Counted from the stretch's first letter, positions 3,444 through 59,030 are shown. The stretch is 64,000 bases of DNA from Candidatus Woesearchaeota archaeon (GCA_964403535.1 CAYOFN010000001.1:2003-66002); one strand, 5' to 3'. Notes: generated by a model not told the origin, from the sequence alone. Numbers and translations: made by a program.

Positions 3444-3579
3444 TGGCTCCGGAGGGATTTGAACCCTCGACACCTGGCTTACTTCTAAAAGCAGTTTGTT
3501 TTTTTGTCTTTTTGAAGGACTGAAAAACTTGCTTTTTCAGTAAAAGGCCAGTGCTCTAACCGGGCTGAGCTACGGAACC
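3444..3579 (-). tRNA. tRNA-Lys(UUU) candidate with ~61-nt intron in the anticodon loop
   Basis: Reverse strand reads GGTTCCG-TA-GCTCAGCCCGGTTAGAGC-A-CTGGC-CTTTTA[intron]A-GCCAG-GTGTC-GAGGGTTCAAATCCCTC-CGGAGCC-A. Acceptor, D, anticodon and T arms all pair, and the T-loop is TTCAAAT. The anticodon assignment depends on the intron position, canonical 37/38 being assumed. No CCA is encoded. Confidence 0.55.
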
Positions 3580-10446: not shown

Positions 10447-10959
10447 TTATCTTCTCGGGATAAACATTCCACTCTCTCTTTTATACTTCAAATATTTTTC
10501 TCCAAATCTTTTAATCATATACCTCTCCTCTACACTTGCCTGCCAGACTATCATAGAACTTGCAATCAGACAGTAAATAAACACAAAAAGAGTTGGCACA
10601 ATCAAAATAACTCCAATTAAACTCAAAATTATTCCTGCATACATTGGGTGCCTCACTCTTTTGTAGATTCCCAATCTTCTCACCCCTTTTGCTCTAAGAA
10701 AATTATTTTTTATTTCATCAAAACTAAGCTTGATGATGAGTAATCCAGCTAAAAAGACGATAGTTCCAGGAAGTACTAAAAAACTAAAAACAAATTCTCT
10801 AACAATAAGAATTCCAGAAAGAATTAACACATCTCCAATCCCAATACCATTAAACAGAACATTTATTTTTTTATTAAATCTCTGATGAGATATACCATCT
10901 ACTAAAAAGAATATAATCATTATCACACTTGCAATTATAAAATATATTAAATTTTCCAT
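10447..10959 (-). CDS. isoprenylcysteine carboxyl methyltransferase (ICMT)-family membrane methyltransferase
   Basis: 170 aa multi-TM protein with an ICMT/PEMT-like C-terminal motif (GVRRLGIYKRVRHPMYAGIIL). Confidence 0.5.
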   Translation of the reverse strand: MENLIYFIIASVIMIIFFLVDGISHQRFNKKINVLFNGIGIGDVLILSGILIVREFVFSFLVLPGTIVFLAGLLIIKLSFDEIKNNFLRAKGVRRLGIYKRVRHPMYAGIILSLIGVILIVPTLFVFIYCLIASSMIVWQASVEERYMIKRFGEKYLKYKRESGMFIPRR

Positions 10960-20351: not shown

Positions 20352-20993
20352 CTATTTCAATACGTCTTTAATCTCAGCAATATCTGAGACAATAATCTCA
20401 GGATTTTCATCTAAAATTTCTTTTCTGGAATTCCACGCACACTTACTCATAATAATAATCCCTTTACATCCAACTTTCCTTGCAACTCTTATATCTGCAG
20501 CTCTGTCTCCAATATAATAACATCTATCTTTTTTTATCCTGTTTTTTTTAAGATACTCTTTAATAAACTCTGCTTTATCATTAAAATCTTCAGCTCCATA
20601 GATTCCTTCAAAGTACTTATTTAATTTAAAATGAGTTATAATTGGAACTACAAATTCTTTTAAAGAATTTGAAACAATAATTTTTCTCTCCTTGATTTTT
20701 TTAATTTCCTCAACATCTCTGCATTTCTTAACATCTCTGATATTTTTCTTGACATTTTTCATAATCTTCATTTTTAAGATCCACAAAACAATAAAAGAAA
20801 ATCCAAATTTTTTTAAAGTCTCTTCTAAACTCAATCCAAGATTAATTATTTTATTAACCTGATTATGATTAAAACCATATTTTTTTAATTCATTATAAAT
20901 CCCAAGATAGTACAACTGCTTAGTATCTGCAATAGTTCCATCAAAATCAAAAATAAGAAAGAAACCCTTATTTATCTTTGCTCTTTTTTTCAT
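20352..20993 (-). CDS. HAD-superfamily hydrolase
   Basis: DxDGT motif I (LIFDFDGTIADT) and C-terminal GD motif (YIGDRAADI). Confidence 0.7.
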   Translation of the reverse strand: MKKRAKINKGFFLIFDFDGTIADTKQLYYLGIYNELKKYGFNHNQVNKIINLGLSLEETLKKFGFSFIVLWILKMKIMKNVKKNIRDVKKCRDVEEIKKIKERKIIVSNSLKEFVVPIITHFKLNKYFEGIYGAEDFNDKAEFIKEYLKKNRIKKDRCYYIGDRAADIRVARKVGCKGIIIMSKCAWNSRKEILDENPEIIVSDIAEIKDVLK

Positions 20994-24826: not shown

Positions 24827-25593
24827 CTAATCCCTCAACTTCTCAGAAGAAGCCTGGTTTGAAATAGCAATTCCACTCTTTTCAATACTAAAAGGATAAA
24901 CTTCAAGTGAATGTTTTACCCCCCTCATCTTTAAGATTTCTATAAACCTCTCTCTTTTCTTTTTGATTCTCGGAAAATACAAAAGAATAATTGAATCAGA
25001 CTCAAATTCAAGAGCACGTGAGGCTGATTTTTTCTCTCTAAAAGGCTCTCCTTCATAAGTAAGCAGAGAAGTGCAATCCCATTTTCTTAGCATATTAAAA
25101 AGAGCAAGTGACGCCTCTCTTCTCTTAATTGCATCATCAAATAACAATTCAAAAGAAGTAATGCTGTCAATCACAATCCTTGTTACTTTTCTTCTTAGAA
25201 CAATTGACTCAACTGTTCCCCCACCTTCCTCTAACATTGTTCTGACTTTTTCAGGAGTATACTCAAGAAACATAAATTTTCCTTCTTTTTCATATTTTTC
25301 CAAATCCCACCCAAACTCCTTCATATTTTCATAAAACTCCTTTTTCTTTTCCTCAAATGTAATATACAGACATTTTTCTCCTTTTTTTATTCCTTCGATT
25401 AAGAACTGAACAGCAAAGATACTCTTCCCACTTCCACTTCCTCAACAATCAAATTAGTAGAATCTCTCTCAAACCCTCCTTCAGAAATCTTGTCAAAATT
25501 AGAAATTCCAGAAGCAACTTTTTGCTGCTCTTTTTTATTCATTTTTCTCTCTCCAACACTTTTGGACTTGTCCTTCTCCCTTTTTTTTACCAT
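24827..25593 (-). pseudogene. KaiC/RecA-superfamily ATPase (FlaH-like) disrupted by a -1 frameshift just upstream of the Walker A motif
   Basis: ORFs 25399-25593 (..GGFERDSTNLIVEEVEVGRV*) and 24827-25324 are two halves. The alternative frame across 25380-25440 reads GSGSGKSIFAVQFLIEGIKKGEKCLYITFEE and joins in frame to MKEFGWDLE. One missing G at ~25440-25446 (gttgagg versus gttggagg) would restore LIVGGSGSGKS. Confidence 0.6.
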
Positions 25594-25794
25594 ACTTATT
25601 AAAGAAAAAATAAGTATAAAAATCTATCTTTAAATTATTACTCTCATTAAAACATTAAATCTAGATAAGCATAACTTAATTTAAATTCACTAATTGTCTA
25701 TCTCCATTAACAACCAAAATTCTCCAGTTATTAATAATAGTCTATTAACATTAATACTCCTCTCTTCATAATCTTTTCAACACTAACCTTTTTC

Positions 25795-26718
25795 TTAAGC
25801 AATTAACTCAGAGATAAAACCAGACAAGAAAAATCTTACTGCAAAAAAAGTTCCTAGTCCTAAAATCAGCAAAGGTAGAAGATATTTCATTCCTTCTTTT
25901 TCCTCTCCCTTGCTTACTAACCCAAGAACAAGCGATGCTAGAATATCCGTAGTGATAATAAAAACTATTGAAAAATATTTTATAAACCCCACAGAAACAT
26001 TTACACTTGAAAGAGTGAATGGAAGATTTACAGGAGCAGAAGTTATATTCACACTTGGAATTGAACCAATAAGCTTTGTCAAAGTTTCAACTAGGATATT
26101 TGAGAGTGAAAATAATGCAGGCGAAAAAATTGCAACAGCAAGAAAAATAAATATCACATACATAAGAACATTTGAAGCAGCTTTTTTCTCAACAAAATCC
26201 CGTTCTCTCATGCTTATAGATGTTTCCTCCAACAAAATAGCAATATCCCCCCCAGCACTCATTCCAGATTTAAGCAAAAGAATTGTTTTATAAATTTTAT
26301 CAGAACCTATTTTTTTTGACATTTCAAGCAAAGCTGACTCAGTGGTTTGTCCAGTAGCTATAGCCTTTCCAGCATTCATTATCTCTTCATCAAGCGGGGA
26401 AAACTCTTTTCTTGAACTTAATAACATTGCTTTATCAATAGTCATTCCTGCTCTTAGATTACTTGACATTAATTGCAGAAAATCAGGAAAAACATCTTCC
26501 ATCTTTTTTATTCTTGCACTCTCCTTTAGATCTTTGCTGACTTTTAGATAAACAAACCATAAAATTAAGAATACAAAAAAAGCTCCTGCAAGAACAATCC
26601 AACTCTTGTAAACAATAAAAAAGATACTGGAGACTATCAGAGAAAAAACAATCCCGATTACTGCTTGCTTGTTTTTCCTAGCTCTTTCTTCAGGTGTAAT
26701 CCTCTTTCTAGTTTTCAT
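25795..26718 (-). CDS. FlaJ/TadC-like type IV pilus assembly membrane protein (T2SS-F domain)
   Basis: 307 aa polytopic protein. It forms a pair with the upstream paralogous membrane protein, as in Epd/Tad pilus systems, and sits beside the FlaI-like ATPase. Confidence 0.55.
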   Translation of the reverse strand: MKTRKRITPEERARKNKQAVIGIVFSLIVSSIFFIVYKSWIVLAGAFFVFLILWFVYLKVSKDLKESARIKKMEDVFPDFLQLMSSNLRAGMTIDKAMLLSSRKEFSPLDEEIMNAGKAIATGQTTESALLEMSKKIGSDKIYKTILLLKSGMSAGGDIAILLEETSISMRERDFVEKKAASNVLMYVIFIFLAVAIFSPALFSLSNILVETLTKLIGSIPSVNITSAPVNLPFTLSSVNVSVGFIKYFSIVFIITTDILASLVLGLVSKGEEKEGMKYLLPLLILGLGTFFAVRFFLSGFISELIA

Positions 26719-27596
26719 AATAAACTCGGCCTCCTTGATTTTATCATTCCAAGAAACATTATCTGAACTAAAACAACAAAAACAAACAACCCAATAAAAA
26801 TTAGCTGAGTCATTGTTTTTGGAAGGTTGATCATAGAGGAGATTATTGTGAGAAAGGTTACAGAGAGAGATGGGATAATCACTGAAATCAGCATGTAAAA
26901 CATAATTAAAGGATTCAGCCTATTTCCGTAATTCTGTATTTGTATTAATTGTTCTTCATTTAGAGCCTTTATGCTGTCTTTAATCACAATAGACATATCA
27001 CTTCCTGCCCTCATTCCATTGCTAATTTGCCAGAGAGTTCTTCTGAAAAAAACAGAACTATTTCTTTCTCCAAGATTCTCCAGAACATCTTCCTGAGGTT
27101 CCCCTGCATTTATTCTCTTAACTGCTTTTTTAAACTCCCCGCTTAACTCTCCATAATCTGCTTCTGAAAGATTAGTTAAAATGCTGAACAATGGAATTCC
27201 TGAATTAAGTTGAATTAAAATATCCTCAAGTGCAGGAATAAGATCTTTTTCTATTCTTCTCTGTCTTCTTGAAGTGTATATTTTTGGATAAACCATCTGG
27301 CTAAAAAATACAAAAAAAGAAAATAAAAGAGAAACAACAAATCCATATAAATAAAATAATTTAATGCTTAACAGAGCAAGAATACTGGTTGAGATAACAA
27401 ACAGAATTAAAAAGGAAAAAATAAATGTTCTTTTGACTATCGCAATGTACTCTTCCCTTGAAATTCCAGCATCAATATTTTTAAGTGACTCAGAGAGTGC
27501 AGATTTTTTTTTGTGTTTTATTTTTCCAGCAGAGACCTTAACTTTTCTTTTTAATCTCTCAATATCTGAGAATGTGAAGGGTATGCGGAATTTCAT
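26715..27596 (-). CDS. FlaJ/TadB-like type IV pilus assembly membrane protein (T2SS-F domain)
   Basis: 293 aa polytopic protein located between the ATPase and the second membrane protein, with overlapping stop/start. Confidence 0.5.
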   Translation of the reverse strand: MKFRIPFTFSDIERLKRKVKVSAGKIKHKKKSALSESLKNIDAGISREEYIAIVKRTFIFSFLILFVISTSILALLSIKLFYLYGFVVSLLFSFFVFFSQMVYPKIYTSRRQRRIEKDLIPALEDILIQLNSGIPLFSILTNLSEADYGELSGEFKKAVKRINAGEPQEDVLENLGERNSSVFFRRTLWQISNGMRAGSDMSIVIKDSIKALNEEQLIQIQNYGNRLNPLIMFYMLISVIIPSLSVTFLTIISSMINLPKTMTQLIFIGLFVFVVLVQIMFLGMIKSRRPSLL

Positions 27597-27598
27597 AT

Positions 27599-29221
27599 TT
27601 ACCTTCCAAGAACTCTTTTTAAGTCATTTTTCCTGATAGCACTCATTAGAGACTCTTTATCATTATAATACAAATTCATAACTCTTCCAAAATCATTTAA
27701 ATCTCTAATCTTATTTTTAATCAGCCAGTCCAGTATTGCTCTTTTTTGTTCCAGGTTTCTGTTTAGCTCTGCTTGTGACATTCCTGTGTTTCTGTTTATG
27801 CTTTCAAAAAATTTAGAACTCTCAGAGTGCCTGATAATCTTGTCTTCTTCAGGAACCCAACGATAAAGAATATTTGCACTTGCACTGTCCTGCTCTGCCT
27901 CGAATTCTGCTACCTGGAATACCCTTCTTATTCCTTTTCTTCTATCTCTAAACATTACAACATTTAAATGAACTGCTTTTAGCAGATTAGGAGGAACATT
28001 TAGAGGAGGATTAGTCAGTCTTGAGATTGTCTCAGCAGCACTATCTGCATGAACTGTTGCATAAACAGAGTGTCCTGTGTGCATTGCTTCAAACAATACT
28101 TCAGCTTCTCTTTGTCTTCTCATTTCTCCAAGAACAATTCTATCAGGTCTCATTCTCAGCGAATTAACAAGCAAGTCCAGCATTGAAACCTCTCCTTTTC
28201 CTTCAGGATTTGCAGATCTTGTGACAAGCGGCGCCCAGTATAAAAATTCAGGCAACATAAGTTCTCTTGTATCTTCTACACTTATAATTCTGTGATTTGG
28301 AGGAATAAAAGGCATCAGAGCATTTAAGAGAGAGGTTTTTCCACTTGCTGTTCCCCCACTTATTAATACATTCATCTCATACTCAACTGCAAGCCAGAGA
28401 AGTGCAGCAACTTCTAAATTGCAGGTACGACTGGTTATTAAGTCAATAATTGTATACGGGTCTCTCGCAAACTTTCTAATAGTTATTGTATTTCCCTTTG
28501 TAGCAATAGGATAAAGAATAGAATTAACTCTATCACCTGTAACAAGATGCGCATCTAATAATGGAGTAAGAACAGTAATCTGTCTTCCAACTCTTCTTGC
28601 AACAATATTTGAGTAGTTTGAAATTTCCTCTTCTTTTGCAATTCTTAAGTTTGTAGAAAGCCATCCATATTTTTTATGGTAAACTCTTATTGGCTCTTTT
28701 GCAGAAGGAATTACTACTTCCTCGAGATTTACATCATTAACTAAAAATTCTATTTGCCCTAATCCAAGCATATCCTGCATTAATTTTCCAACTAAAAACT
28801 CCTGCATGCTCTTCTGAAGGCTAGGAAGCTTTTCTTTAAGCAACGTCGCTGCTTTCTGCATAAATCTTTTTTTAATCTCCTGAAAAGCCGAAGGGTCAGT
28901 CATCTCCTTCATGCTGATTGTTGTTACAGAAACAAGTTCATTTCTAACCTCACTTAAAAGAGCACCTGTAGCTGCACCAATCTCAGGGACATTTACACTG
29001 TATATCACCCCCAACTCCTCTCTTTTAATCTCAACATCTACTACTGCTCCATCAACTCCAATTTTGTATTTTTCAAGAAGTCCTTTTTTAATTGGAGCCT
29101 CTACTCTTTTCTCAGTCTTCTTTGAGATTTTTTCTTTTGTATTTTCAGTTCTCACAGATTTTACTTTTAAAACCCTTTTAACACTATACTCTTTTTTCTT
29201 AACCTTCTTTTTCTTTTTCAT
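27599..29221 (-). CDS. type IV pilus/archaellum assembly ATPase (FlaI/PilB/TadA-VirB11 family)
   Basis: Walker A (ISGGTASGKTSLLNAL), Asp box (ISVEDTRELMLP) and His box (MHTGHSVYATVHA). Confidence 0.85.
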   Translation of the reverse strand: MKKKKKVKKKEYSVKRVLKVKSVRTENTKEKISKKTEKRVEAPIKKGLLEKYKIGVDGAVVDVEIKREELGVIYSVNVPEIGAATGALLSEVRNELVSVTTISMKEMTDPSAFQEIKKRFMQKAATLLKEKLPSLQKSMQEFLVGKLMQDMLGLGQIEFLVNDVNLEEVVIPSAKEPIRVYHKKYGWLSTNLRIAKEEEISNYSNIVARRVGRQITVLTPLLDAHLVTGDRVNSILYPIATKGNTITIRKFARDPYTIIDLITSRTCNLEVAALLWLAVEYEMNVLISGGTASGKTSLLNALMPFIPPNHRIISVEDTRELMLPEFLYWAPLVTRSANPEGKGEVSMLDLLVNSLRMRPDRIVLGEMRRQREAEVLFEAMHTGHSVYATVHADSAAETISRLTNPPLNVPPNLLKAVHLNVVMFRDRRKGIRRVFQVAEFEAEQDSASANILYRWVPEEDKIIRHSESSKFFESINRNTGMSQAELNRNLEQKRAILDWLIKNKIRDLNDFGRVMNLYYNDKESLMSAIRKNDLKRVLGR

Positions 29222-29233
29222 TTATCCTCTTTT

Positions 29234-29779
29234 TTATTTTGCAGATATTTTGAGAACAGGCTCCCCTCCAAATCCAGGATACTCTATTGTTGCAAGATTG
29301 CTCGATTCAAGCATCTTTGCCCAGTTTAGTGCAGTGTCTTTCTTAACCTTGAATGTTTTTGCAATTGTTGAGACTCTTACTTGTTTTTTACTCTCCAAAA
29401 TTTTATACAATACATCTAAATCAGTCCCTTTTTGAGATACTTTGTTAATATCAATTCCTTCTAATTCTTTTTTTCTGCTTTTAACTCCCTTATCTCTGAC
29501 AGATATAACCAAAAGCAAAACTAATACTACCCCCCACTGAACTATAAGGAAAACTCTTGCAGTAAAAGATATCTCTTGATATGCTTTAATAAACGTATCT
29601 CCTACTGAAAATCCAGTTATCCCTCCAGATAACCCTCCAAACTTAAAAGCATATCCCCCAAGATTTATAATAAACAAAAATGCTGATACAAACAAGACTC
29701 TTAAAAAAAGTGTTTTTTCTCCTCTTCTTTTAACAGGTTTCTCTTTAAGTTCTATCTTCCCTCTTTTTTTATCAATCAT
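29234..29779 (-). CDS. membrane protein, first gene of the pilus-assembly operon (possible C-terminal winged-helix)
   Basis: 181 aa with 2 TM helices and a soluble C-terminal domain. Confidence 0.35.
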   Translation of the reverse strand: MIDKKRGKIELKEKPVKRRGEKTLFLRVLFVSAFLFIINLGGYAFKFGGLSGGITGFSVGDTFIKAYQEISFTARVFLIVQWGVVLVLLLVISVRDKGVKSRKKELEGIDINKVSQKGTDLDVLYKILESKKQVRVSTIAKTFKVKKDTALNWAKMLESSNLATIEYPGFGGEPVLKISAK

Positions 29780-29780
29780 C

Positions 29781-29870
29781 TTTTATAAAAATGTTTAAAT
29801 ATCTTATTTATTATGTATATACACCGTGGATTTATTTTATAAATCTTGCTAAAAAAGAGAAAAACATAAT
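29781..29870. promoter_or_regulatory. divergent promoter region between pilus-assembly operon (minus) and prepilin operon (plus)
   Basis: Two TATA-like boxes ~25-35 bp upstream of each start codon (TTTTATAAAAATG on the minus side; TTTTATAAAT at 29835-29844). Confidence 0.35.
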
Positions 29871-30287
29871 ATGGCTCATTTTAAAAAATCTCAGATAAGT
29901 TCAGAGTATTTGGTTATAATCGGATTTGTCACTTTTGTCATAATTGGAATCCTTGGAATAGCATTTTTTTATACAGGAGCTATAAAAGACAGAATGAGAA
30001 TCAATCAAATAACCAATTTTGCCAGTAAAATCATCTCCACATCTGAATCATTGTTCTATTCAGGCAAGCCTTCAAAAGCAACTGTCTCTGCATATCTTCC
30101 TGATGGAATAACTGGAATTCAAATTGCAGAACAAAGCTTAATTTTCACTGTCTATACAAGTTCAGGAGAGAATAAAATTAGTTTTCCAAGTAAGGTTCCT
30201 ATAACTGGAAATATTATAGGCACCCAGGGAGTAAAGAAGATTACTATAGAAGCTCAGGAGAGCGCAGTTTCAATAAGTCCTGCTTAA
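29871..30287 (+). CDS. prepilin-like protein with class III (archaeal type IV pilin) signal peptide
   Basis: N-terminus MAHFKKSQISSEYLVIIGFVTFVIIGIL matches a QxSxE-type prepilin signal followed by a hydrophobic helix. Confidence 0.5.
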   Translation: MAHFKKSQISSEYLVIIGFVTFVIIGILGIAFFYTGAIKDRMRINQITNFASKIISTSESLFYSGKPSKATVSAYLPDGITGIQIAEQSLIFTVYTSSGENKISFPSKVPITGNIIGTQGVKKITIEAQESAVSISPA

Positions 30288-30288
30288 A

Positions 30289-30702
30289 ATGGGAAAATCA
30301 AAAAAGAGGGGGAAAAATAAAAATGCACAATCTTCAATCGAATTTCTCATTATTATTGGGTTTGTCTTATTTTTCTTTATAATATTTTTTGTAGCAATTC
30401 AGGAAAAAATAGTTGAGGAAACAAAGCAAAATCAAGAATTATCAGTAAAAGAAATTGCAATTACAGTCCAAAATGAAATCAATCTTGCGCTTATCTCAAG
30501 TGACGGATACACCCGCGAATTTAAGATTCCAATGAATCTTGGAAATAAAAATTACAGCATTAATATAACTGAAGACATGGTTTATGTAAAAACAATAGAT
30601 AACAAGAGTGCAATTGCTTTGCCTGTCGCAAAACTCACAGGAAACATTCAGAAAGGAACAAACACAATTAAAAAACAAAACAATGAAATTCTTCTAAACT
30701 AA
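30289..30702 (+). CDS. prepilin-like protein (class III signal peptide)
   Basis: N-terminus MGKSKKRGKNKNAQSSIEFLIIIGFVLFFFIIFF. Its start codon is 2 nt after the previous stop. Confidence 0.55.
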   Translation: MGKSKKRGKNKNAQSSIEFLIIIGFVLFFFIIFFVAIQEKIVEETKQNQELSVKEIAITVQNEINLALISSDGYTREFKIPMNLGNKNYSINITEDMVYVKTIDNKSAIALPVAKLTGNIQKGTNTIKKQNNEILLN

Positions 30703-30704
30703 AA

Positions 30705-31205
30705 ATGAAAAATAAAAATGCACAAGCCTGGGGAATTGATTTGATAATTGCAGGATTTATCTTTACTATAGGGATCACCTCATTTTACCTTTATACTATT
30801 AATTATACTGCAGACTCAGAAGAAGTAATAGAAACTCTAAGGTACGAAGGAAATATTATTGCAGACATAATTCTCTCAGAAGGATATCCAAAAAACTGGA
30901 CTTTAATTAATGTAGTCTCTCCAGGAATTCTGTCAGAGAATAAAATAAACGAGACAAAACTACAGAACTTCTATACTCTCACTATTTCAGATTATCCTAA
31001 AACAAAAACCTTGTTTAATACAAGATATGACTACCTCCTGCTCTTTAATGAAAATCTTACTATCGGCGCAAATGAAATAAATAAGATAGGAAAACCAGGA
31101 GTTAGTCCAGGAACTATTTCTTCTGAAAATCTCATAAAAATAACCCGTTTTACAATATACAAAAACACTCCAATAACAGTCAATCTTTATATCTGGGAAA
31201 AATGA
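30705..31205 (+). CDS. prepilin-like protein (class III signal peptide)
   Basis: N-terminus MKNKNAQAWGIDLIIAGFIFTIGI; translationally coupled to the previous gene. Confidence 0.45.
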   Translation: MKNKNAQAWGIDLIIAGFIFTIGITSFYLYTINYTADSEEVIETLRYEGNIIADIILSEGYPKNWTLINVVSPGILSENKINETKLQNFYTLTISDYPKTKTLFNTRYDYLLLFNENLTIGANEINKIGKPGVSPGTISSENLIKITRFTIYKNTPITVNLYIWEK

Positions 31206-33082
31206 AAACAAAAAAAGCAATTTTTTTTAGCACAGACGCACTAATAGCCCTGCTCATAATCTTCTTAAGCATACTGATAATTTATCCGATCATAAAGTAC
31301 TCAGATTACAAGACAAACTTAAATGAAGATGTACTCACTGTTCTTTCGAGTTTAAAAGTAGGAGAAGTAAATAATTCTTATATTCAAAATTTAATTTCTT
31401 TAAAAGAAATAACTGATTTGAACAAATCTATCCTCGAGCAAATAGGAGATTTTTATGTAACTAATTTAACAAGAGCTAAGGAAATGACAAAATCAATTCT
31501 TCTTACTCTTAATACAACAGAGAATATCGGAGTATGGTATGGTGAGGATTTGCTCGCTTCTGTAAACTCATCACCTTATGAGACAGCTACAGATATAGAA
31601 GTAGAGAGGCAAATTATCAGTGGTATAGAAAAAGGAAAATCTTCAAAAGGTTTTGTGTCTAAAGCATGGCTTAGAAAAGTTTCAAAAAAAAAGAATATTT
31701 TGTTCATAAAAGGAGATTTAATGTGTGGAGGATGGAAATCTTATTCTTGGGGGGATTATTGCGGAACTAGCGAGGCTACAGCAGTTTATAATGTAAACTT
31801 TCCAACAAATGCAACTATCAAAAATGCTTTTTGGTTAATTGAAGGTGCCTGGACTCCTCAATTCTCAAGAGCATATGTAAATGGAGTAGAAGTGTATAGT
31901 GGAAGTGTAGACCATTATACTAATGTAGACATAACTTCTTTTCTTCATCCTGGAAATAACACAGCAACACTCTACGGTGCAATTGGAGTAGAAGATGGAG
32001 CTTCTCACATTATTGTAGAGTATGAAACTCCAGATATGCAGACTTATCACTCTCAAACTAAGTTTTACCTAAACAAACTCACAGCAACCTCTGTCCTTCA
32101 TCAAGAAAAATCAATAATACTCCCTTCAGACATCTCATTAATTAATGCAACAATAAATACAACTTCAGATGTAACTCTATCATTTAGAAAAGGAATTAAG
32201 AGTTTTGAAATAGGAAAAAAATCACCTGTAAATAATATTGTTACTTTCTCAGATGCAGAAATAAAAAATGCTTTAAACTCAAATGGAATCTCTTATTCAG
32301 ATTTAAACAGCGAATACTTTTTTTTAACTCTTGATATTGGGAAAGACACTCCTGGGCAGGTTATTACACTTGAAGGAGAGTCTTTTTTTTACATAAACTC
32401 TTCTAAAATAATTATGCCCTATGGAACAATTGATATAACTCAGGAAATTCCTCTAACAAACTCCTCTAATCATGTGGTCCACACTTTTTACAGAAATTTG
32501 GAGTGGCAATTTCATCTTCCTATCAGTTCAACACCTATCCTTGCAGACTGGCAGTTTGGATGGTTTATTGAATTAGGAGTTTCAGAGCAAAAGGTAACAG
32601 CTAATGGTATTGTTCTTTATGATTCTCCGCCTGATGCTTTTATTCCTGCTTTTAGTAGATTTGGCTATTCTCCCTCAAGAGCCCAAGGAGTATTTCAGGA
32701 AGGACAGAATAATTTTACCCTTGACTTTGGAAATACTTACAGTGTCTCAAATGAATCTTCTTACGGACATCTGATTTATTTTATCAAGAGCTATGTAAAT
32801 TATGGAGATGCAAAAGAAAAAGCGCAAGGAGGAACAAGAGTTCTGGAATTTGAAGATGGTTCAGTCCAAACTTTTAGAGTTGGAAATTTTTCAGATGTAT
32901 GGGACCCTGATGTTGATGCAGTAGATGATGCTGTAGAGCGTCTCTTTTCTCAGTTAGATGCAGATAAAGATAATAAACTTGACTTAGTATTTAATGCAGA
33001 CTCATTTAGCATTGAAAGCATGGACATTTCTGGAGTTCCATACATTTGGAACACTGAAGTTCAAGCAAGAAGATGGATATAA
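31202..33082 (+). CDS. large pilin-like surface protein (626 aa) with N-terminal pilin-type hydrophobic helix and many N-glycosylation sequons
   Basis: N-terminus MKTKKAIFFSTDALIALLIIFLSILIIY. Its start overlaps the previous stop by 4 nt. Numerous NxS/T sequons. Confidence 0.45.
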   Translation: MKTKKAIFFSTDALIALLIIFLSILIIYPIIKYSDYKTNLNEDVLTVLSSLKVGEVNNSYIQNLISLKEITDLNKSILEQIGDFYVTNLTRAKEMTKSILLTLNTTENIGVWYGEDLLASVNSSPYETATDIEVERQIISGIEKGKSSKGFVSKAWLRKVSKKKNILFIKGDLMCGGWKSYSWGDYCGTSEATAVYNVNFPTNATIKNAFWLIEGAWTPQFSRAYVNGVEVYSGSVDHYTNVDITSFLHPGNNTATLYGAIGVEDGASHIIVEYETPDMQTYHSQTKFYLNKLTATSVLHQEKSIILPSDISLINATINTTSDVTLSFRKGIKSFEIGKKSPVNNIVTFSDAEIKNALNSNGISYSDLNSEYFFLTLDIGKDTPGQVITLEGESFFYINSSKIIMPYGTIDITQEIPLTNSSNHVVHTFYRNLEWQFHLPISSTPILADWQFGWFIELGVSEQKVTANGIVLYDSPPDAFIPAFSRFGYSPSRAQGVFQEGQNNFTLDFGNTYSVSNESSYGHLIYFIKSYVNYGDAKEKAQGGTRVLEFEDGSVQTFRVGNFSDVWDPDVDAVDDAVERLFSQLDADKDNKLDLVFNADSFSIESMDISGVPYIWNTEVQARRWI

Positions 33083-33110
33083 AAAACAAATAAAAAACAA
33101 GATTATATTC

Positions 33111-33440
33111 CTACTTCCCTATATCTGATTTAGCTGCTTCAGTTATAAGGTTTTTTCTTTCATCTTTAGTTATTAGTCCTTGCAAAAGAAAATATTTAGA
33201 GGTATGAGATACGCAACTAACATACTCCCCATGATTTCTTAAGTTTTCAGAGCATATCTGAACAACAGAGCACCCATCTGAGTTTACAACATCTCCACTC
33301 TCTGTGTTCATGCACAAATCATCAACATCTAAAATTCCATCATTATCACTATCTGTTGGAGCAGGTGGTGCAGCTGAAATACCCACACTTAAAATCAATA
33401 AAGACAGAACAACTGAAAGCACTATAAATATACTTTTCAT
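33111..33440 (-). CDS. secreted protein with thrombospondin-type-3-like Ca-binding Asp repeats
   Basis: Signal peptide, then DSDNDGILDVDDLC...NSDGCS. Confidence 0.4.
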   Translation of the reverse strand: MKSIFIVLSVVLSLLILSVGISAAPPAPTDSDNDGILDVDDLCMNTESGDVVNSDGCSVVQICSENLRNHGEYVSCVSHTSKYFLLQGLITKDERKNLITEAAKSDIGK

Positions 33441-33512
33441 TTTACCCTCCTTTTAAAAATAACAGATAAGAAGATATTTAAGGTTTTATATATTCAGATA
33501 TATACAACTAAC

Positions 33513-34433
33513 ATGAAAAATAAAAGAGGGATGTTCTTTACTCTACTAGTAATAGCCTTGCTCGCCTTATTTCTTGTTACTTATTCTTCTTTTCATCTTA
33601 TTGAGGAAAGAAAAGCAACTAACAAGAGAGTAGAGAGCATGAACAGTTTTATCTTCTCTCTTGAACAAGACATTTCAAGACAGATTTATATCTCCAGCTA
33701 TCGGGCTCTTCTCTCTCTTCAATACTCCTTAACAACAAAAGAAGAATTTTTAGATGATTCAAGAGCATCAATCAAAGAAGCTCTGCTAAACGGAACAATT
33801 GAAGGGGAAAACATAAGTTTAATGGAGGGTTATAGAATTCAGGACTGGAGCTCAAGAATTTCAGAGTTTGGAAATAAAACAAATCTTCAGATTGATTACT
33901 CGATTCTAAATATAAGTGTAACTCAGGAAGACCCCTGGAATATTAAAATTGACCTGTCTCTAAGAATGTTAATTAAGGACAATTCTAATCTAGCTTCTTG
34001 GAACAGGACTCAGAATATCTCTTCAAAAATTGAGATAATTGGATTTGAAGACCCCCTTTATATTATTTACACTAGAGGAATCTTTTCAAATAAAATAAAC
34101 AAAACAATTTACTCTCCATTTGTAGACGGAACAAATGTACAAAATCTTACTTTTCATTCAACACACTCTTATTACATTGCTTCTCCTGATGCCCCAAGTT
34201 ACCTTGATAGGCTTGAAGGAAAAACTTCAGCAAATCCAAATGGGGTAGAGTCTCTTGTTTATTTTCCAGTACTCTCCTCAAAAGGAATAAATGTGGAAGA
34301 TAAATCCTGTGTAGACCATATTTATTTTTCTTCAAATAACCCTTCTGCCCATAGAATAACTGGAATGCCTGTTTGGTTTAAGATTGATGATGCTCATCTT
34401 GCTTTGTATAATGTTACTGCTCTTTCAATCTAA
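33513..34433 (+). CDS. pilin-like/surface protein with class III-like signal (MKNKRGMFFTLLVIALLALF)
   Basis: KRG followed by a hydrophobic helix, and a glycosylation-rich ectodomain. Confidence 0.4.
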   Translation: MKNKRGMFFTLLVIALLALFLVTYSSFHLIEERKATNKRVESMNSFIFSLEQDISRQIYISSYRALLSLQYSLTTKEEFLDDSRASIKEALLNGTIEGENISLMEGYRIQDWSSRISEFGNKTNLQIDYSILNISVTQEDPWNIKIDLSLRMLIKDNSNLASWNRTQNISSKIEIIGFEDPLYIIYTRGIFSNKINKTIYSPFVDGTNVQNLTFHSTHSYYIASPDAPSYLDRLEGKTSANPNGVESLVYFPVLSSKGINVEDKSCVDHIYFSSNNPSAHRITGMPVWFKIDDAHLALYNVTALSI

Positions 34434-35017
34434 TTAGAAACTATTCCTCCAACAATTCCACCAATCTCTACTTTGATCTCTCCCTCAAGAATGTAAGTAA
34501 CGAAAACATCTTCATAAAACTCTTCTTTTCCAGAATTATCACACTCAAAAACAAAATTCTCCTCTTCATCATTCTCTATTATCTCCTGCACTTCTGGAGT
34601 ACACCCTCCAAGTTTCATCTTCACACTCATACTCTCCCCTAACTGATTTCTAATCTTTAGAGAAACACTCTCATTTTTAATATAATTTACAAAACAGGTA
34701 ATATGCGGAAGATTTCCTGGGCGGATTAATACACAATAATCTTCTTCATTCACTTTCTCACTCTCTGCACCAGGTTCACTGATTACTCCACTTCCTCCGC
34801 CTCCACTGCTCCCTCCAGAACTTCCTCCAGTTCCTTCAGAGATGACTCCACCAGAGATTAAATTATCCCCACCCTCAAGGTTTTCTGTAGTCTCGGTTTT
34901 CAAAACGTTCTCATTTGTCCCTCTCTCACTATTTTTTGGAGAGTAAATAAATGCAACTCCAAAAAGAAATATCAAAATAACAGTAAAAATTCCAACCAAC
35001 CAAAAAGCTCTCCCCAT
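34430..35017 (-). CDS. membrane-anchored Gly/Ser-rich protein
   Basis: N-terminal TM helix and a GGSSGGSSGGGGSG linker. Confidence 0.3.
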   Translation of the reverse strand: MGRAFWLVGIFTVILIFLFGVAFIYSPKNSERGTNENVLKTETTENLEGGDNLISGGVISEGTGGSSGGSSGGGGSGVISEPGAESEKVNEEDYCVLIRPGNLPHITCFVNYIKNESVSLKIRNQLGESMSVKMKLGGCTPEVQEIIENDEEENFVFECDNSGKEEFYEDVFVTYILEGEIKVEIGGIVGGIVSN

Positions 35018-35309
35018 TTTTTTATTCTTATTAATTTACTCTGGATTAATTAAGATCTCAAGCATATAAAAACTTATTCTTACTCTTAATCTAACCCTTA
35101 AAATTAATACTTTTAATTCTCCCCCTCCTAAGACAGTTTCTTGATTAATAATTAATAAATCTTGTTTAAATTAAGCATTCTAGAAACTCTTATGGTTTAA
35201 CAAGCAATTAATCCCATTGACTATAAAAATAAAATCGAGTATAGAAATCTTTATAAAGAACTTAATCCTCGAGTATATTATTATAAAACAAAATTCAAAA
35301 GGAGGTAAA

Positions 35310-35750
35310 ATGCAAAGAAAAGGACAAGCAGCTATGGAATTCTTGATGACTTATGGTTGGGCTATTTTAGCAGCAGTAATTGCAATAGGTGTTCTTGCAT
35401 ATTTCGGTGTTTTCTCACCTGGAAAATATGTAACAGGTAATGCTGTTGTAAATCCACCATTTTATATTAATGCTTGGAATGCAAAAGCATCTACAGGTGT
35501 TACACTTGAGCTCAAGAATAATGGCGGAGAAGACTACGAGATTCAGAGTGTTGATATAAGCAATTGCGGATCAGACAGCACAGCAACTTCAATTCCAGCA
35601 GACACGAGCGCAGCTATAACAGTTGCATGCACTACACCACTGCTAGAAGGAGAATCTTTTAAAGGCGATATAACTGTGAGTTATAGAAAAGAAGGTAGCA
35701 CAGTAGACTTGACATCAACAGGAACAGCTGCAGGAAAAGTAGTAGCTTAA
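35310..35750 (+). CDS. major type IV pilin candidate (class III signal peptide RKGQAAMEFLMTYGWAIL)
   Basis: Start chosen at MQRKGQ (35310), preceded by SD GGAGGT (the track ORF starts upstream at 35217). Canonical archaeal prepilin motif KGQ..E.L. Followed by a T-rich terminator. Confidence 0.6.
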   Translation: MQRKGQAAMEFLMTYGWAILAAVIAIGVLAYFGVFSPGKYVTGNAVVNPPFYINAWNAKASTGVTLELKNNGGEDYEIQSVDISNCGSDSTATSIPADTSAAITVACTTPLLEGESFKGDITVSYRKEGSTVDLTSTGTAAGKVVA

Positions 35751-35790
35751 TTTTATTTTTTTATTTTTATTTTTTTTATAGTTTTCTTAA
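35751..35790 (+). terminator. oligo-T terminator after pilin gene
   Basis: taattttatttttttatttttattttttttatag. Confidence 0.4.
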
Positions 35791-35801
35791 GATAGTTTAT
35801 C

Positions 35802-36779
35802 TTAATTTCTAATCATCTTTCTAAATTTTTCTACATATCCAGGAGTATACTGATTCTTTGGAATTGCTCCTTTTGGATTATCTTCATTAGGAAAACTCTC
35901 TGCCCACACTTCTCTCATAACTTCAAAAGTTCTATCTCCAATTATTCCATCTTCAACAAGTCCTGCTCTTTTCTGAAATTCTGATACAATCCTTTTTGTA
36001 GCCTTTCCATTATCTCCATCTGGACTAATCCACTGAGGATAAAATAAATCACTTAACATCTGTTGAGCTCTTGCAGTTCTTGGTGCTAACTGTCCAGAAT
36101 TATATGCAGCAGCAGCAAGTTCAGGAGTTCCATATCTTTCTAAACCTAATTGAAACAATCTGGTTGCATAAGCTTGATTTATTTCAGGAACAAACAATCT
36201 TTCCTGCAAATGTCTCTCTTTTCTTATAGCCTCAATAGTTTTTTCATCTAACTCCCCTATTCTTTTTAATCTATGTTTTCTCTGAATCCTATCAATATAA
36301 ATTGCAGTAGCTCCGTCAATTTTTTCATCTAATCTTACATCCAATTCCTCTCTCTTAATTCTTTTCTTTCCATCTACTACTACTTCCCTCTTAACCTCTA
36401 TTCTTTCACCATATAATTTGATTAAATCCTGCTTTGCTTTAATTAATCCATATTCCTTCTTTGAGAATTCAGCATAATCAGAAATTCTTGGCAAATCTGG
36501 AAATCTTCTTTCTAGAGCAAGTGCAGTCTCAGTAGTCAACTGCCCTAATCCATAACTTGTATCATTAATATGGCTTTCATATCTCTGTTCACTAGGTTTT
36601 CTTCCACTCTCTATTGTGTATATAACTCTCATATAATCATCAAGAGTAAGTTTTTTCTCTTCTGGCTTTCTCTCACATCCAATTACAGATAACAAACTCC
36701 CACAAATTCCTAGACTTATCGCCCCCATCGCTCCTCTACCACATTTTTCTAAAAAATCTCTTCTTGATATTTTTTCCAT
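35802..36779 (-). CDS. TAT-signal lytic murein transglycosylase (SLT domain) with C-terminal peptidoglycan-binding (PG_binding_1-like) domain
   Basis: Likely start MEKISRRDFLEK at 36777-36779 (twin-arginine motif SRRDFLEK, then a hydrophobic region ending IGC). SLT catalytic motifs (YTIESG...SYGLGQLT, AAAAYNSGQ). C-terminal DGIIGDRTFEVM PG-binding-like repeat. Confidence 0.65.
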   Translation of the reverse strand: MEKISRRDFLEKCGRGAMGAISLGICGSLLSVIGCERKPEEKKLTLDDYMRVIYTIESGRKPSEQRYESHINDTSYGLGQLTTETALALERRFPDLPRISDYAEFSKKEYGLIKAKQDLIKLYGERIEVKREVVVDGKKRIKREELDVRLDEKIDGATAIYIDRIQRKHRLKRIGELDEKTIEAIRKERHLQERLFVPEINQAYATRLFQLGLERYGTPELAAAAYNSGQLAPRTARAQQMLSDLFYPQWISPDGDNGKATKRIVSEFQKRAGLVEDGIIGDRTFEVMREVWAESFPNEDNPKGAIPKNQYTPGYVEKFRKMIRN

Positions 36780-36780
36780 T

Positions 36781-37011
36781 TTATCTCCCCCTATTTTCTG
36801 GCATTTTATACTCTGGGTCTTTAACAAAATAAGTCAACCCATTTGGAGTTTTTTCAGCTTTTAATCCAGGTGCTGCTAAGGCAATTTCAGGATTTTTAAA
36901 TGTTCCAGATAAAACTAAATAAACTAAAGGAGTCAAAATAGCAAGTTTTAACCACTGAGTTCCACCTCTTGCTCTCCTTCTCTCAGCTCTTGTCTCTAAA
37001 TTTTCTGTCAT
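36781..37011 (-). CDS. small hypothetical protein (1 TM) immediately upstream of the lytic transglycosylase
   Basis: 76-aa ORF whose stop abuts the proposed SLT start. Confidence 0.3.
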   Translation of the reverse strand: MTENLETRAERRRARGGTQWLKLAILTPLVYLVLSGTFKNPEIALAAPGLKAEKTPNGLTYFVKDPEYKMPENRGR

Positions 37012-37193
37012 TTTTCTTTTGACCTTAAACCTAATTTGTAACTATTACGCAGTAACTACTATATTTAAAGCTTTCGATAGGAGTTTTTCTCTATTATTAA
37101 CTTCAAGTTAGAAAAGTAGTTTTTCAAGTTAACTTTATAAATATCTTGTTTCTTATTCTTTAATAAAAGAGCAAATTTAATTTAAAACAAAAA

Positions 37194-43788: not shown

Positions 43789-44274
43789 TTAAGCTGTGAA
43801 TGTGTCTGTATCTGTAACCGGACACTGCTTTATACTTCCGTCTTCAGCTGTTATTTGAGGAGCAATTCTAACCTGATAACTAGTATCCCTAGTTAATTCA
43901 TCAACCGCTGCAGGATCATCTTCTATTGTTATTGTTGAAGTTCCAAGAGCACTAGGTATCTTTGTAGGTTCATCTAAACTCCACATAGTAGCACCACTAA
44001 CAGCATCAACAACTAAAACTTTTACTCCAGCTAATGTTGTTTCATCAGTTCCTCTCTCAACTTGAACAGCAACAGAATCTACAGGATTATTTGTATTTGG
44101 AGTAACCCCACTTATAGTTAAATCAATTCCAATACATGCTGCAGTCCCTGTTATTGAGCCAGCTCCTTCGTCAACAGTTCCTCTTACAACCTGCCAGACA
44201 ATAACTATTGCAGCTAAGACTAGCAAGATAATAAGAATTGTTGTTATAATTTGTGACTGACCTTTTCTTTCCAT
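43789..44274 (-). CDS. pilin-like protein with class III signal peptide (MERKGQSQIITTILIILLVLAAIV)
   Basis: RKGQ followed by a hydrophobic helix, and a Thr/Asp-rich ectodomain. Confidence 0.5.
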   Translation of the reverse strand: MERKGQSQIITTILIILLVLAAIVIVWQVVRGTVDEGAGSITGTAACIGIDLTISGVTPNTNNPVDSVAVQVERGTDETTLAGVKVLVVDAVSGATMWSLDEPTKIPSALGTSTITIEDDPAAVDELTRDTSYQVRIAPQITAEDGSIKQCPVTDTDTFTA

Positions 44275-58849: not shown

Positions 58850-58855
58850 TTTTGA

Positions 58856-58928: not shown

Positions 58929-59030
58929 ATATTTCAAATAAAATACAGGTATTTTTAAATTCTACTATCTTTTTCATATTAGGGTTATAGTAAATTTTTT
59001 ATACTCATTTAATCAAATATCTTCAGAAAC

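What the first reader, a model, noticed from the sequence alone, without database searches (positions are those of the whole stretch)
24827..36827. Archaeal type IV pilus locus flanked by a murein-degrading enzyme: candidate host-attachment or cell-wall-breaching apparatus
A contiguous 12-kb block encodes: a FlaI/PilB-like assembly ATPase; two FlaJ/TadC-like polytopic membrane proteins, paired as in Epd/Tad systems; a KaiC/FlaH-like ATPase; a divergently transcribed, translationally coupled operon of four prepilin-like genes including a 626-aa glycosylation-rich one; further class-III-signal pilins including a strong major-pilin candidate (MQRKGQAAMEFL...); and Ca-binding thrombospondin-repeat and Gly-rich surface proteins. 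The block ends in a TAT-exported soluble lytic transglycosylase with a peptidoglycan-binding domain. Archaea lack murein, so a PG-binding lytic transglycosylase beside pilus genes resembles the bacterial T4SS/T4P plus VirB1-like arrangement. In a small-genome (DPANN-like) archaeon this suggests a bacterially acquired enzyme used to act on a bacterial partner or prey cell wall. That combination is not a described archaeal system.
Basis: partly seen in the sequence, partly recalled or inferred. Interest (0 to 1): 0.78.

Follow-up and report, generated by a model that had tools for sequence, protein, structure and literature searches.

The report
Archaeal pilus genes beside murein-cutting enzyme
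A tiny-genome (DPANN, Pacearchaeota-like) archaeon encodes an ordinary archaeal adhesion-pilus gene cluster and, next to it, a real, exported bacterial-cell-wall-cutting enzyme, but comparison with relatives shows the two are neighbours by local gene order and not one conserved machine, and such enzymes in these archaea are already published.

Summary

The "single apparatus" interpretation is not supported. The SLT family is a small DPANN-only family whose constant neighbours are TrpRS or ThrRS and an MG2-like protein. It lies next to the pilus block in only 4 of 11 genomes. The closest relative has the same gene order but an unrelated gene in the SLT slot. In one genome the SLT and the pilus block sit on different contigs. 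In others the SLT is co-operonic with an Amidase_2.

The pilus block follows a known archaeal plan. Lytic transglycosylases in Pacearchaeota and Woesearchaeota, read as a sign of bacterial partners, are already published.

Verdict: a new member of a known kind, of moderate interest as an experimental handle.

The parts
24827..25593 (-). KaiC/FlaH-like accessory ATPase. It is broken in this assembly by a 1-nt deletion at ~25444 and is intact (255 aa) in the population.
   Evidence: Pfam KaiC PF06745 9.7e-32 on the C-terminal ORF. Walker A GGSGSGKS reads in the shifted frame. L014, L015 and L017 carry the extra G, and L015 encodes 255 aa.
25795..26718 (-). TadC/FlaJ-like platform protein, second of a pair (307 aa)
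   Evidence: Pfam T2SSF 2.4e-12. Overlaps the upstream T2SSF gene by 4 nt. Orthologs at 51-67% identity in L005, L006, L008, L023, L024 and L025.
26715..27596 (-). TadB/TadC-like platform protein, first of a pair (293 aa)
   Evidence: Pfam T2SSF 8.1e-16. Lies 2 nt downstream of the ATPase gene.
27599..29221 (-). PilB/FlaI/GspE2-type type IV filament assembly ATPase (540 aa)
   Evidence: Pfam T2SSE 1e-34 plus PilB3_C 3e-7. Best PDB sequence matches: A. fulgidus GspE2 2oap 4.5e-71, FlaI 8.8e-56, CpaF 7.5e-49.
29234..29779 (-). Conserved small two-TM membrane protein at the head of the ATPase operon, with a weak C-terminal HTH-like region (181 aa). Role unknown.
   Evidence: Two hydrophobic segments. 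Only sub-threshold HTH hits. An ortholog sits at the same position in all pilus loci.
29871..30287 (+). Minor pilin-like protein A (138 aa)
   Evidence: N-terminus KKS|QISSEYLVIIGF. The motif [KR]x[GAS]|QSxIEYL is conserved in orthologs. Single N-terminal hydrophobic helix. No curated HMM hit.
30289..30702 (+). Minor pilin-like protein B (137 aa)
   Evidence: N-terminus KNA|QSSIEFLIIIGF. The motif |QSGIEFL is conserved in orthologs. Lies 1 nt after gene A.
30705..31205 (+). Minor pilin-like protein C (166 aa)
   Evidence: N-terminus KNA|QAWGIDLIIAGF. The motif |QxWGFDL is conserved. Lies 2 nt after gene B.
31202..33082 (+). Large pilin-like, sequon-rich, beta-rich surface protein (626 aa). It occupies the TadG/PilY1-like 'tip adhesin' position.
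33111..33440 (-). Small secreted protein with one Asp-rich TSP3-like motif (109 aa)
   Evidence: Signal-like N-terminus. The DSDNDGILDVDD motif is visible in the sequence. No Pfam hit. Ortholog in L023.
33513..34433 (+). Additional pilin-like, sequon-rich protein (306 aa)
   Evidence: N-terminus KRG|MFFTLLVIALL. The motif [KR]G|[MI]xFT is conserved in L023, L024 and L025. 9 sequons. Orthologs in L005, L023, L024 and L025.
34430..35017 (-). N-terminally anchored protein with a Gly/Ser-rich linker (195 aa)
   Evidence: Hydrophobic N-terminus. GGSSGGSSGGGGSG stretch. Orthologs in L023, L024 and L025. No Pfam family.
35310..35750 (+). Major pilin candidate (146 aa; start at MQRKGQ, not the upstream TTG)
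   Evidence: The first ~38 residues, KG|QAAMEFLMTYGWAILAAVIAIGVLAYFGVFSPGK, are nearly identical in L023, L024 and L025, while the C-terminal domain varies. No sequons. No curated HMM hit.
35802..36779 (-). Exported family-1 lytic transglycosylase (325 aa). It has an inserted degenerate PG-binding module and a C-terminal PG_binding_1 domain.
36781..37011 (-). Small protein (76 aa) with an Arg-rich N-terminus and a hydrophobic segment, 1 nt upstream of the SLT gene and probably co-transcribed with it
   Evidence: Coordinates. Called in four independent assemblies. No family hit.
43789..44274 (-). Second, stand-alone PilA-type pilin outside the block (161 aa)
   Evidence: NCBIfam TIGR02537 archaellin/type IV pilin N-terminal domain, 20.9 bits against a cutoff of 20. 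Tandem paralogs in L013.

Best explanation
Two separate cell-surface systems of a Pacearchaeota-like DPANN archaeon lie side by side.

(1) Window 24.8-35.75 kb is a complete archaeal adhesive type IV pilus cluster of the known 'ATPase + two TadC + KaiC-like ATPase' plan. The PilB-like ATPase and the split platform would assemble a filament of the major pilin (35310-35750, possibly also 43789-44274). The filament would be primed by a minor-pilin set (three small proteins, the 626-aa beta-rich glycoprotein and orf306) that presents the binding surface. The pilins would be processed at conserved [KR]x[GAS]|Q sites by a prepilin peptidase encoded elsewhere.

(2) Window 35.8-37.0 kb is an independent two-gene unit, orf76 plus a family-1 lytic transglycosylase. 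The enzyme is exported (twin-arginine-type signal, probably retained at the membrane by a lipobox Cys or an uncleaved anchor) and held on peptidoglycan by its PG_binding_1 module(s). There it would cleave MurNAc-GlcNAc bonds of bacterial murein.

What is shown: gene content, domain identity, fold, intact catalytic motifs, export signals, and gene-order comparisons. What is inferred: pilus function in cell or surface attachment, murein as the substrate, and the biological purpose (thinning the wall of a bacterial partner or prey at the contact site, or releasing muropeptides from bacterial debris). Both systems plausibly serve the same lifestyle, but they are not a conserved genetic or physical module.
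For: Pilus cluster:
- Pfam and PDB matches.
- Conserved class-III-like N-termini in orthologs.
- Translational coupling.
- The same block is conserved at 50-80% identity in L005, L006, L008, L023, L024 and L025.
- The plan matches Makarova et al. 2016: two tadC genes and KaiC association in euryarchaeal clades 1 and 2 (PMC4858521).

SLT:
- Every family member has an N-terminal export or anchor signal, and 10-11 of 21 have a twin-arginine consensus.

Independence of the two systems:
- The SLT is its own convergent unit.
- The short-form SLT sits by TrpRS or ThrRS and the MG2-like gene with no pilus genes within 10 kb in L011, L012, L013, L020 and L022.
- The pilus block occurs without an SLT in L023 and L024.
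- L011 and L025 are the same genome on different contigs.

Murein toolkit: Amidase_2 (1.4e-20) is co-operonic with the SLT in L020 and L022.

Not chimeric: and four assemblies.
Against: - Adjacency occurs in two different configurations: the SLT is downstream of KaiC in L005, L006 and L008, and beyond the major pilin gene here. All four long-form SLTs, the ones with the inserted second PG-binding module, are pilus-adjacent. That is somewhat more than frozen gene order would predict.
- No enzymatic activity, substrate, localisation or host is known.
- No prepilin peptidase or Tat genes are visible in the ~76 kb available.
- Curated pilin HMMs do not recognise the pilins inside the locus.
- All cultivated DPANN so far have archaeal, not bacterial, hosts (PMC11291902 abstract).
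Confidence: 0.62

Rival explanations
1. Integrated apparatus. The pilus and the SLT form one host-attachment and wall-breaching machine. The pilus docks onto a bacterium, and the locus-encoded transglycosylase, like VirB1, EtgA or PleA but directed at the partner's wall, opens the murein at the contact site.
Against: Adjacency holds in only 4 of 11 genomes. The closest relative, L023 (ATPase 80% identical, same gene order), has an unrelated gene in the slot. In GCA_030648155.1 the two are unlinked. L024 has the block without an SLT. In L006 an opposite-strand gene separates KaiC from the SLT. In this window the SLT is convergent to the pilin gene and is its own unit. The whole TrpRS/MG2 neighbourhood keeps its gene order, so linkage can be inherited.
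Confidence: 0.15
2. The enzyme acts on a substrate other than bacterial murein. Candidates are chitin-like or other GlcNAc polymers, the archaeon's own or an archaeal host's wall polymer (pseudomurein), or the protein is only a binding protein.
Against: The three family-1 LT motifs, including the catalytic Glu, are invariant. The top structural neighbours are all murein LTs. The C-terminal PG_binding_1 is well preserved (2.9e-13). A MurNAc-L-Ala amidase is co-operonic in relatives. From established chemistry, the LT reaction needs the C6-OH of MurNAc, and pseudomurein's N-acetyltalosaminuronic acid lacks it.
Confidence: 0.12
3. Artefact. The SLT segment is bacterial contamination or a chimeric join, or the gene is a decaying remnant.
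For: This assembly has two gene-breaking single-base defects, in KaiC and in the thermosome gene. SLT and PG_binding_1 are overwhelmingly bacterial or phage domains.
Against: L001 from another sample is 100% identical over window 28419-38344. Both junctions of the SLT recur in four assemblies. GC is 0.340 against 0.333 +/- 0.023. The flanking genes are archaeal-type ThrRS and pilins. All five genomic homologs are in DPANN MAGs. The ORF is intact with conserved catalytic residues.
Confidence: 0.02

Closest known systems
Archaeal type IV pili of the euryarchaeal clade 1/2 plan (Methanococcus Epd pili, Haloferax PilB3-PilC3 adhesion pili) and the derived bacterial Tad/Flp pilus
   Same: PilB/CpaF-like ATPase (with a PilB3_C domain), two TadB/TadC-like platform genes, an associated KaiC/FlaH-family ATPase, a minor-pilin set plus a large TadG/PilY1-position protein, stand-alone PilA-type major pilins, and Gln at +1 of the predicted cleavage site as in EppA-type substrates.
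   Different: Curated pilin HMMs do not recognise the pilins inside the locus. No prepilin peptidase is in the cluster. The large protein here lacks the vWA domain that its ~850-aa relatives have. There is a conserved two-TM small protein at the head of the operon.
Family-1 lytic transglycosylases (E. coli Slt70, MltC, MltE; C. jejuni Cj0843c) and the PG_binding_1 + LT endolysin phiKZ gp144
   Different: It is encoded by an archaeon. The catalytic domain is interrupted by a ~95-aa insert (beta-hairpin plus a degenerate PG-binding copy). The PG_binding_1 is C-terminal, not N-terminal. There is a conserved C-terminal tail (P307, N309, T312-P313, V316, K318-F319). At most 23% identity to any solved LT.
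[quoted passage not shown] 2021, PMC8204110; GH23 of Vigneron et al. 2022, PMC9723730)
   Same: An SLT/GH23 domain in the same DPANN lineages. Same proposed meaning: binding or degrading bacterial walls, hence bacterial hosts or prey.
   Different: Those are described as large proteins, up to ~3,000 aa. This is a distinct family of 230-370-aa proteins with PG_binding_1, often with a twin-arginine signal, at a conserved TrpRS/ThrRS/MG2-like position, and sometimes co-operonic with Amidase_2.
Secretion-system-dedicated lytic transglycosylases (VirB1 of T4SS, EtgA of T3SS, PleA of Caulobacter pili and flagella)
   Different: Those enzymes open the producer's own sacculus and are conserved parts of their loci. 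Here the producer has no murein, and the linkage is not conserved (4 of 11 genomes).

Membership tests
Archaeal type IV pilus system (Epd/Tad-like plan) | VirB11/PilB-family assembly ATPase | tested here: met
   Pfam T2SSE 1e-34 and PilB3_C 3e-7. GspE2 2oap 4.5e-71, FlaI 8.8e-56, CpaF 7.5e-49.
Archaeal type IV pilus system (Epd/Tad-like plan) | FlaJ/TadC-type polytopic platform protein(s), here as two genes | tested here: met
   T2SSF 8.1e-16 and 2.4e-12 in two overlapping genes. The two-tadC arrangement is described for clades 1 and 2 (PMC4858521).
Archaeal type IV pilus system (Epd/Tad-like plan) | Pilins with class III signal peptides: a short basic N-terminus, a [GAS] cleavage site, then a hydrophobic helix | tested here: met
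   The motifs are conserved across orthologs for six genes. Each has a single N-terminal hydrophobic segment. Only 4 window ORFs match the Q+1/acidic+5 pattern, and all are in this locus.
Archaeal type IV pilus system (Epd/Tad-like plan) | Match to curated pilin N-terminal models (TIGR02537 / Pfam Class_IIIsignal) | tested here: not met
   No hit for any pilin-like ORF in the locus. Only the pilin outside the locus, 43789-44274, passes TIGR02537 (20.9 against 20 bits).
Archaeal type IV pilus system (Epd/Tad-like plan) | Cognate prepilin peptidase (FlaK/PibD/EppA) | tested here: inconclusive
   None was found among the ORFs of the window or the contig flanks. The rest of the genome was not available.
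Family-1 lytic transglycosylase (SLT, GH23) | SLT domain profile match above the curated threshold | tested here: met
   PF01464, 27.1 bits against a cutoff of 21.3. Only profile positions 48-108 match, because the domain is interrupted.
Family-1 lytic transglycosylase (SLT, GH23) | Catalytic Glu in the E-S motif plus the GLxQ and AYNxG motifs | tested here: met
   E57, S58, S75-Y76-G77-L78-(G79)-Q80 and A222/A224/Y226-(N227)-G229 are invariant or nearly so in 21 sequences.
Family-1 lytic transglycosylase (SLT, GH23) | Lysozyme-like fold superposable on known LTs | tested here: met
Family-1 lytic transglycosylase (SLT, GH23) | Non-hydrolytic cleavage of murein giving 1,6-anhydroMurNAc | not testable with these tools
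   Needs an enzyme assay.
PG_binding_1 domain proteins | Profile match to the three-helix peptidoglycan-binding domain | tested here: met
   PF01471 2.9e-13. PDB sequence hits to PG-binding domains of L,D-transpeptidase, the Zn DD-peptidase and gp144. The insert is a degenerate second copy, at 13.2 bits here and 24-35 bits in relatives.
Tat-exported (lipo)proteins | Twin-arginine consensus S/T-R-R-x-F-L-K followed by a hydrophobic region | tested here: inconclusive
   SRRDFLEK is present and is shared by 10-11 of 21 family members. TIGR01409 scores 13.5 bits, below its cutoff of 16.7.
Tat-exported (lipo)proteins | TatA/TatC present in the genome | tested here: inconclusive
   Not seen in the window or the contig flanks. 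The rest of the genome is unavailable.
Machine-dedicated lytic transglycosylases (VirB1/EtgA/PleA type) | Conserved presence within the machine's gene cluster | tested here: not met
   Adjacent in the window, L005, L006 and L008. Absent from the block in L023, L024 and L025. The SLT occurs without the block in L011, L012, L013, L020 and L022.
Large extracellular SLT proteins of Pacearchaeota/Woesearchaeota (fam00969) | Very large multidomain extracellular protein carrying an SLT domain | tested here: not met
   325 aa here, and family members are 228-369 aa. The description is in PMC8204110.

The most novel reading that the evidence does not exclude
In one Pacearchaeota subclade, the long-form transglycosylase, which has gained a second PG-binding module inside its catalytic domain, has been recruited to the type IV pilus locus. 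There it works as a pilus-associated, partner-directed wall-opening enzyme. Pilus binding brings the archaeon against a bacterium, and the membrane-tethered enzyme locally cuts the bacterium's murein to allow cytoplasmic or nutrient access. This would be the first molecular mechanism for an archaeon-on-bacterium episymbiosis.
Probability: 0.15. Interest if true: 0.8.

Novelty: new member of a known kind. Interest (0 to 1): 0.38.

Why it matters
Whether Pacearchaeota and Woesearchaeota live on bacteria instead of archaea is an open question. All cultivated DPANN have archaeal hosts (PMC11291902), and the main genomic hint so far is that they encode murein transglycosylases (PMC8204110, PMC9723730).

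This small, well-folded enzyme is far easier to express and assay than the giant proteins described so far. It has intact catalytic residues, a clear PG-binding domain and, in relatives, a partner amidase. It is therefore a practical handle for testing that hypothesis.

The analysis also shows that a complete archaeal-type type IV pilus cluster is widely conserved in Pacearchaeota and Nanoarchaeota. A groundwater study treated pili as absent from DPANN and used them to identify cells as CPR bacteria (10.1101/2020.05.14.094862), so that inference may need care.

The specific claim of a combined pilus and wall-breaching apparatus does not survive comparative analysis.

Tried and rejected
- Chimeric contig or contamination: rejected. 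There is 100% identity to an independent assembly across both SLT junctions, normal GC, and archaeal flanks.
- KaiC as a pseudogene: rejected. The deletion is a 1-nt defect specific to this assembly.
- Small membrane protein 10447-10959 as a prepilin peptidase (GIGIGD motif): rejected. It is PEMT/ICMT-like.
- L023 slot protein as an NlpC/P60-like wall peptidase replacing the SLT: not supported. There is no Pfam, NCBIfam or PDB hit.
- Identifying the nearest bacterial outgroup of the SLT: failed. The word-based search stops at E = 2.4e-5. The exhaustive profile search is swamped by multi-PG_binding_1 repeat proteins and carries no taxonomy.
- Sigma-70 promoter and terminator scan around the SLT: uninformative for an archaeon, and at the level of shuffled controls.
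- Literature search for Woesearchaeota plus type IV pili plus lytic: no papers.

Full report

On the minus strand there is an operon of:
- a small two-TM protein (29234-29779);
- a T2SSE ATPase (27599-29221; Pfam 1e-34, plus PilB3_C);
- two T2SSF platform genes (26715-27596 and 25795-26718);
- after a 201-nt gap, a KaiC-like ATPase.

The gene runs to 25593 and is broken by a single-base deletion just before the Walker A motif. Three independent assemblies of the same population carry the extra G and encode an intact 255-aa protein. The defect therefore belongs to this assembly, not to the organism.

Four genes are transcribed divergently at 29871-33082, separated by 1, 2 and -4 nt. After them come orf109, orf306, orf195, the major-pilin candidate (35310-35750) and, convergent to it, the orf76-SLT pair (35802-37011).

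**Pilins.** No curated model (Pfam, NCBIfam) recognises the pilin-like genes inside the locus. Only a separate pilin at 43789-44274 passes TIGR02537. The class III signal pattern is nevertheless real and conserved. The orthologs in L005, L006, L008, L023, L024 and L025 keep these motifs:
- [KR]x[GAS]|QSxIEYL
- |QSGIEFL
- |QxWGFDL
- KKA|YYYSxDALIA
- [KR]G|[MI]xFT

The major-pilin candidate keeps an almost invariant 38-residue N-terminus. Its C-terminal domain diverges among genomes whose other proteins are only 50-80% identical, which is the classic signature of a major pilin.

The 626-aa protein, orf306 and two of the small pilins have four to six times the window's mean density of N-glycosylation sequons.

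The ATPase is closest to archaeal GspE2, then FlaI, then CpaF. Two tadC genes plus a KaiC-family ATPase is the plan Makarova et al. described for euryarchaeal clade 1 and 2 pili (PMC4858521). The pilus cluster is therefore an ordinary archaeal type. No prepilin peptidase was found in the window or in the contig flanks.

**The transglycosylase.** The evidence that this is a genuine enzyme:
- Pfam gives PG_binding_1 (2.9e-13) and a partial SLT match (3.3e-6), both above threshold.
- In alignments of 8 and 21 family members, the three family-1 motifs are invariant: E57-S58, SYGLGQ and AxAYNxG.
- The Pfam match is partial because the catalytic domain is interrupted by a ~95-aa insert. That insert matches the family's own C-terminal PG-binding profile at 24-35 bits in relatives but only 13 bits here, so it is a duplicated module that has degenerated in this protein.
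- The N-terminus has SRRDFL and a lipobox-like VIGC. About half of the family has a twin-arginine consensus, and the rest have Sec-type or anchor-like hydrophobic N-termini. Export is conserved; the route is not.
- The Tat model score is sub-threshold, and no Tat genes are visible.

**Not a chimera.** An assembly from another sample is 100% identical over window 28419-38344. The SLT gene's GC and GC3 are within the window's range. Four assemblies reproduce the junctions. Intron-containing tRNAs, archaeal ThrRS, RNA polymerase and thermosome genes surround the region.

**Distribution and gene order.**
- The SLT family is small. About 22 members were found by the word-indexed search, followed by a gap to E = 2.4e-5. 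The exhaustive search found roughly 40-50 full-length clusters at 50% identity.
- All five hits in species-representative genomes are Pacearchaeota, Woesearchaeota or Nanoarchaeota MAGs.
- The four long-form genes (window, L005, L006, L008) all lie beside the pilus block. In the three relatives the gene is downstream of KaiC; in this window it is at the opposite end.
- The short-form genes in L011, L012, L013, L020 and L022 have no pilus genes within 10 kb. They sit next to TrpRS or ThrRS and a ~670-aa MG2-like protein. That same backbone flanks the block in this window.
- Searching from the pilus side gives the same answer. L023 is the closest relative (ATPase 80% identical) and has identical gene order from TrpRS to ThrRS, but it has an unrelated, unidentifiable protein with a Tat-like signal in the SLT slot.
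- L024 has the block with no SLT nearby.
- L025 is the same genome as L011, so there the block and the SLT are on different contigs.
- Adjacency therefore holds in 4 of 11 genomes, all from one subclade, inside a neighbourhood that keeps its gene order anyway.
- In L020 and L022 the SLT is instead in an apparent operon with an Amidase_2 (1.4e-20). That supports a genuine murein-degrading toolkit that does not depend on the pilus.

**Mechanism.** The best reading is two independent surface systems.

The pilus cluster assembles an adhesive filament. This rests on homology and is not shown directly.

The SLT is exported, probably stays tethered to the membrane, binds peptidoglycan through PG_binding_1 and cleaves MurNAc-GlcNAc bonds. 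Murein is the likely substrate for four reasons:
- the motifs and structural neighbours are those of murein LTs;
- the binding domain is intact;
- a MurNAc-L-Ala amidase partners the enzyme in relatives;
- the LT reaction requires the C6-OH of MurNAc, which pseudomurein's talosaminuronic acid lacks (established chemistry).

The data cannot say whether the purpose is to thin a bacterial partner's wall, to prey on bacteria, or to scavenge muropeptides.

The integrated-apparatus model keeps some probability, about 0.15. The long-form enzyme is always next to the pilus block, and it is so in two different arrangements.

**Comparison with the literature.**
- SLT/GH23 genes in Pacearchaeota and Woesearchaeota, read as evidence for bacterial hosts or prey, are published. 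See Castelle et al. 2021, PMC8204110, which cites Rinke 2013 and Castelle 2015; Vigneron et al. 2022, PMC9723730; and mentions in PMC10936187, PMC11537232 and PMC12352652.
- Those reports emphasise very large proteins. The small SLT plus PG_binding_1 family seen here has only automated annotation ('peptidoglycan-binding protein').
- None of these papers links the enzyme to pili. A direct search found nothing, and Makarova et al. list no transglycosylase among genes associated with archaeal pili.
- The unreported element is thus the adjacency, and the adjacency is the part the comparative data do not support as a conserved feature.
- One side point: a groundwater preprint states that type IV pilus components are missing from DPANN genomes and used pili to assign cells to CPR (10.1101/2020.05.14.094862). 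The archaeal-type block here is widely conserved in these lineages.

**Verdict.** This is a new member of a known kind. Interest is moderate (0.38), mainly because the enzyme is a tractable reagent for testing whether these archaea target bacteria.

Noticed in passing
window 24827-25593 (-), deletion at ~25444: The KaiC-like ATPase gene is split by a 1-nt deletion just upstream of its Walker A motif. Three independent assemblies (L014, L015, L017) have an extra G there, and L015 encodes an intact 255-aa protein.
   Followed up: yes
window 60271-61887 (-), TAG at 61543-61545: The thermosome (Cpn60_TCP1) gene carries an in-frame TAG at a conserved Gln. Assembly L029 has CAG and an intact 538-aa gene. 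This is the second gene-breaking single-base defect in this assembly.
   Followed up: yes
window 3444-3579 (-) and 60073-60213 (+): Rfam finds two tRNA genes spanning 136-141 nt, so they contain introns. ARAGORN missed both and found only tRNA-Val at 58854-58929. This is consistent with an archaeal genome.
   Followed up: partly
window 43789-44274 (-); L013 4656-5642: A second, different PilA-type pilin (MERKGQSQIITT...) lies 8 kb from the locus. It is the only pilin here that passes TIGR02537. L013 has two tandem paralogs of it beside Elp3 and ThrRS.
   Followed up: partly
window 20968-22977 (-); L005 12323-14326, L012 11804-13816, L013 11358-13370, L020 15941-17944: A ~670-aa secreted protein with a weak MG2 (alpha-2-macroglobulin-like) domain is the one neighbour of TrpRS and the SLT conserved in every locus examined. 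Its function is unknown.
   Followed up: partly
L020 8991-12507; L021 964-4480; L022 8889-14381: In genomes with the short-form enzyme, the genes for Amidase_2 (N-acetylmuramoyl-L-alanine amidase, 1.4e-20), an HTH_3 protein, the SLT and a 580-586-aa unknown protein form an apparent operon. That would be a two-enzyme murein-degrading cluster in DPANN archaea.
   Followed up: partly
L023 15204-15872 (-): In the closest relative, the SLT slot between the major pilin gene and ThrRS holds an unrelated 222-aa protein. It has a Tat-like signal (NRRKFLKAG) and a GNCSGYV...H motif, and has no Pfam, NCBIfam or PDB match.
   Followed up: partly
relatives of window 31202-33082 (P0074-P0125): Relatives of the 626-aa pilin-like protein that are ~830-890 aa long share its N-terminal quarter and carry vWA domains (PF00092, PF13519, PF13768). 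The central domain of this 'tip' protein therefore seems to be swapped between lineages.
   Followed up: partly
L006 11386-11949; L020 8315-9007: A multi-TM protein with weak similarity to the L-alanine exporter AlaE (E ~ 2e-3, below threshold) recurs next to the SLT gene in two distant loci.
   Followed up: no
window 16864-18363 (-): A 499-aa secreted protein matches DUF2330 (1.2e-31), a family described as conserved in bacteria. It is another apparently bacterial-type surface protein in this archaeon.
   Followed up: no
L008 10995-11597: The gene directly downstream of the long-form SLT in L008, overlapping it, encodes a 200-aa protein with an HELGH zinc-protease motif and a weak reprolysin-like hit (3.9e-4, below threshold).
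   Followed up: no
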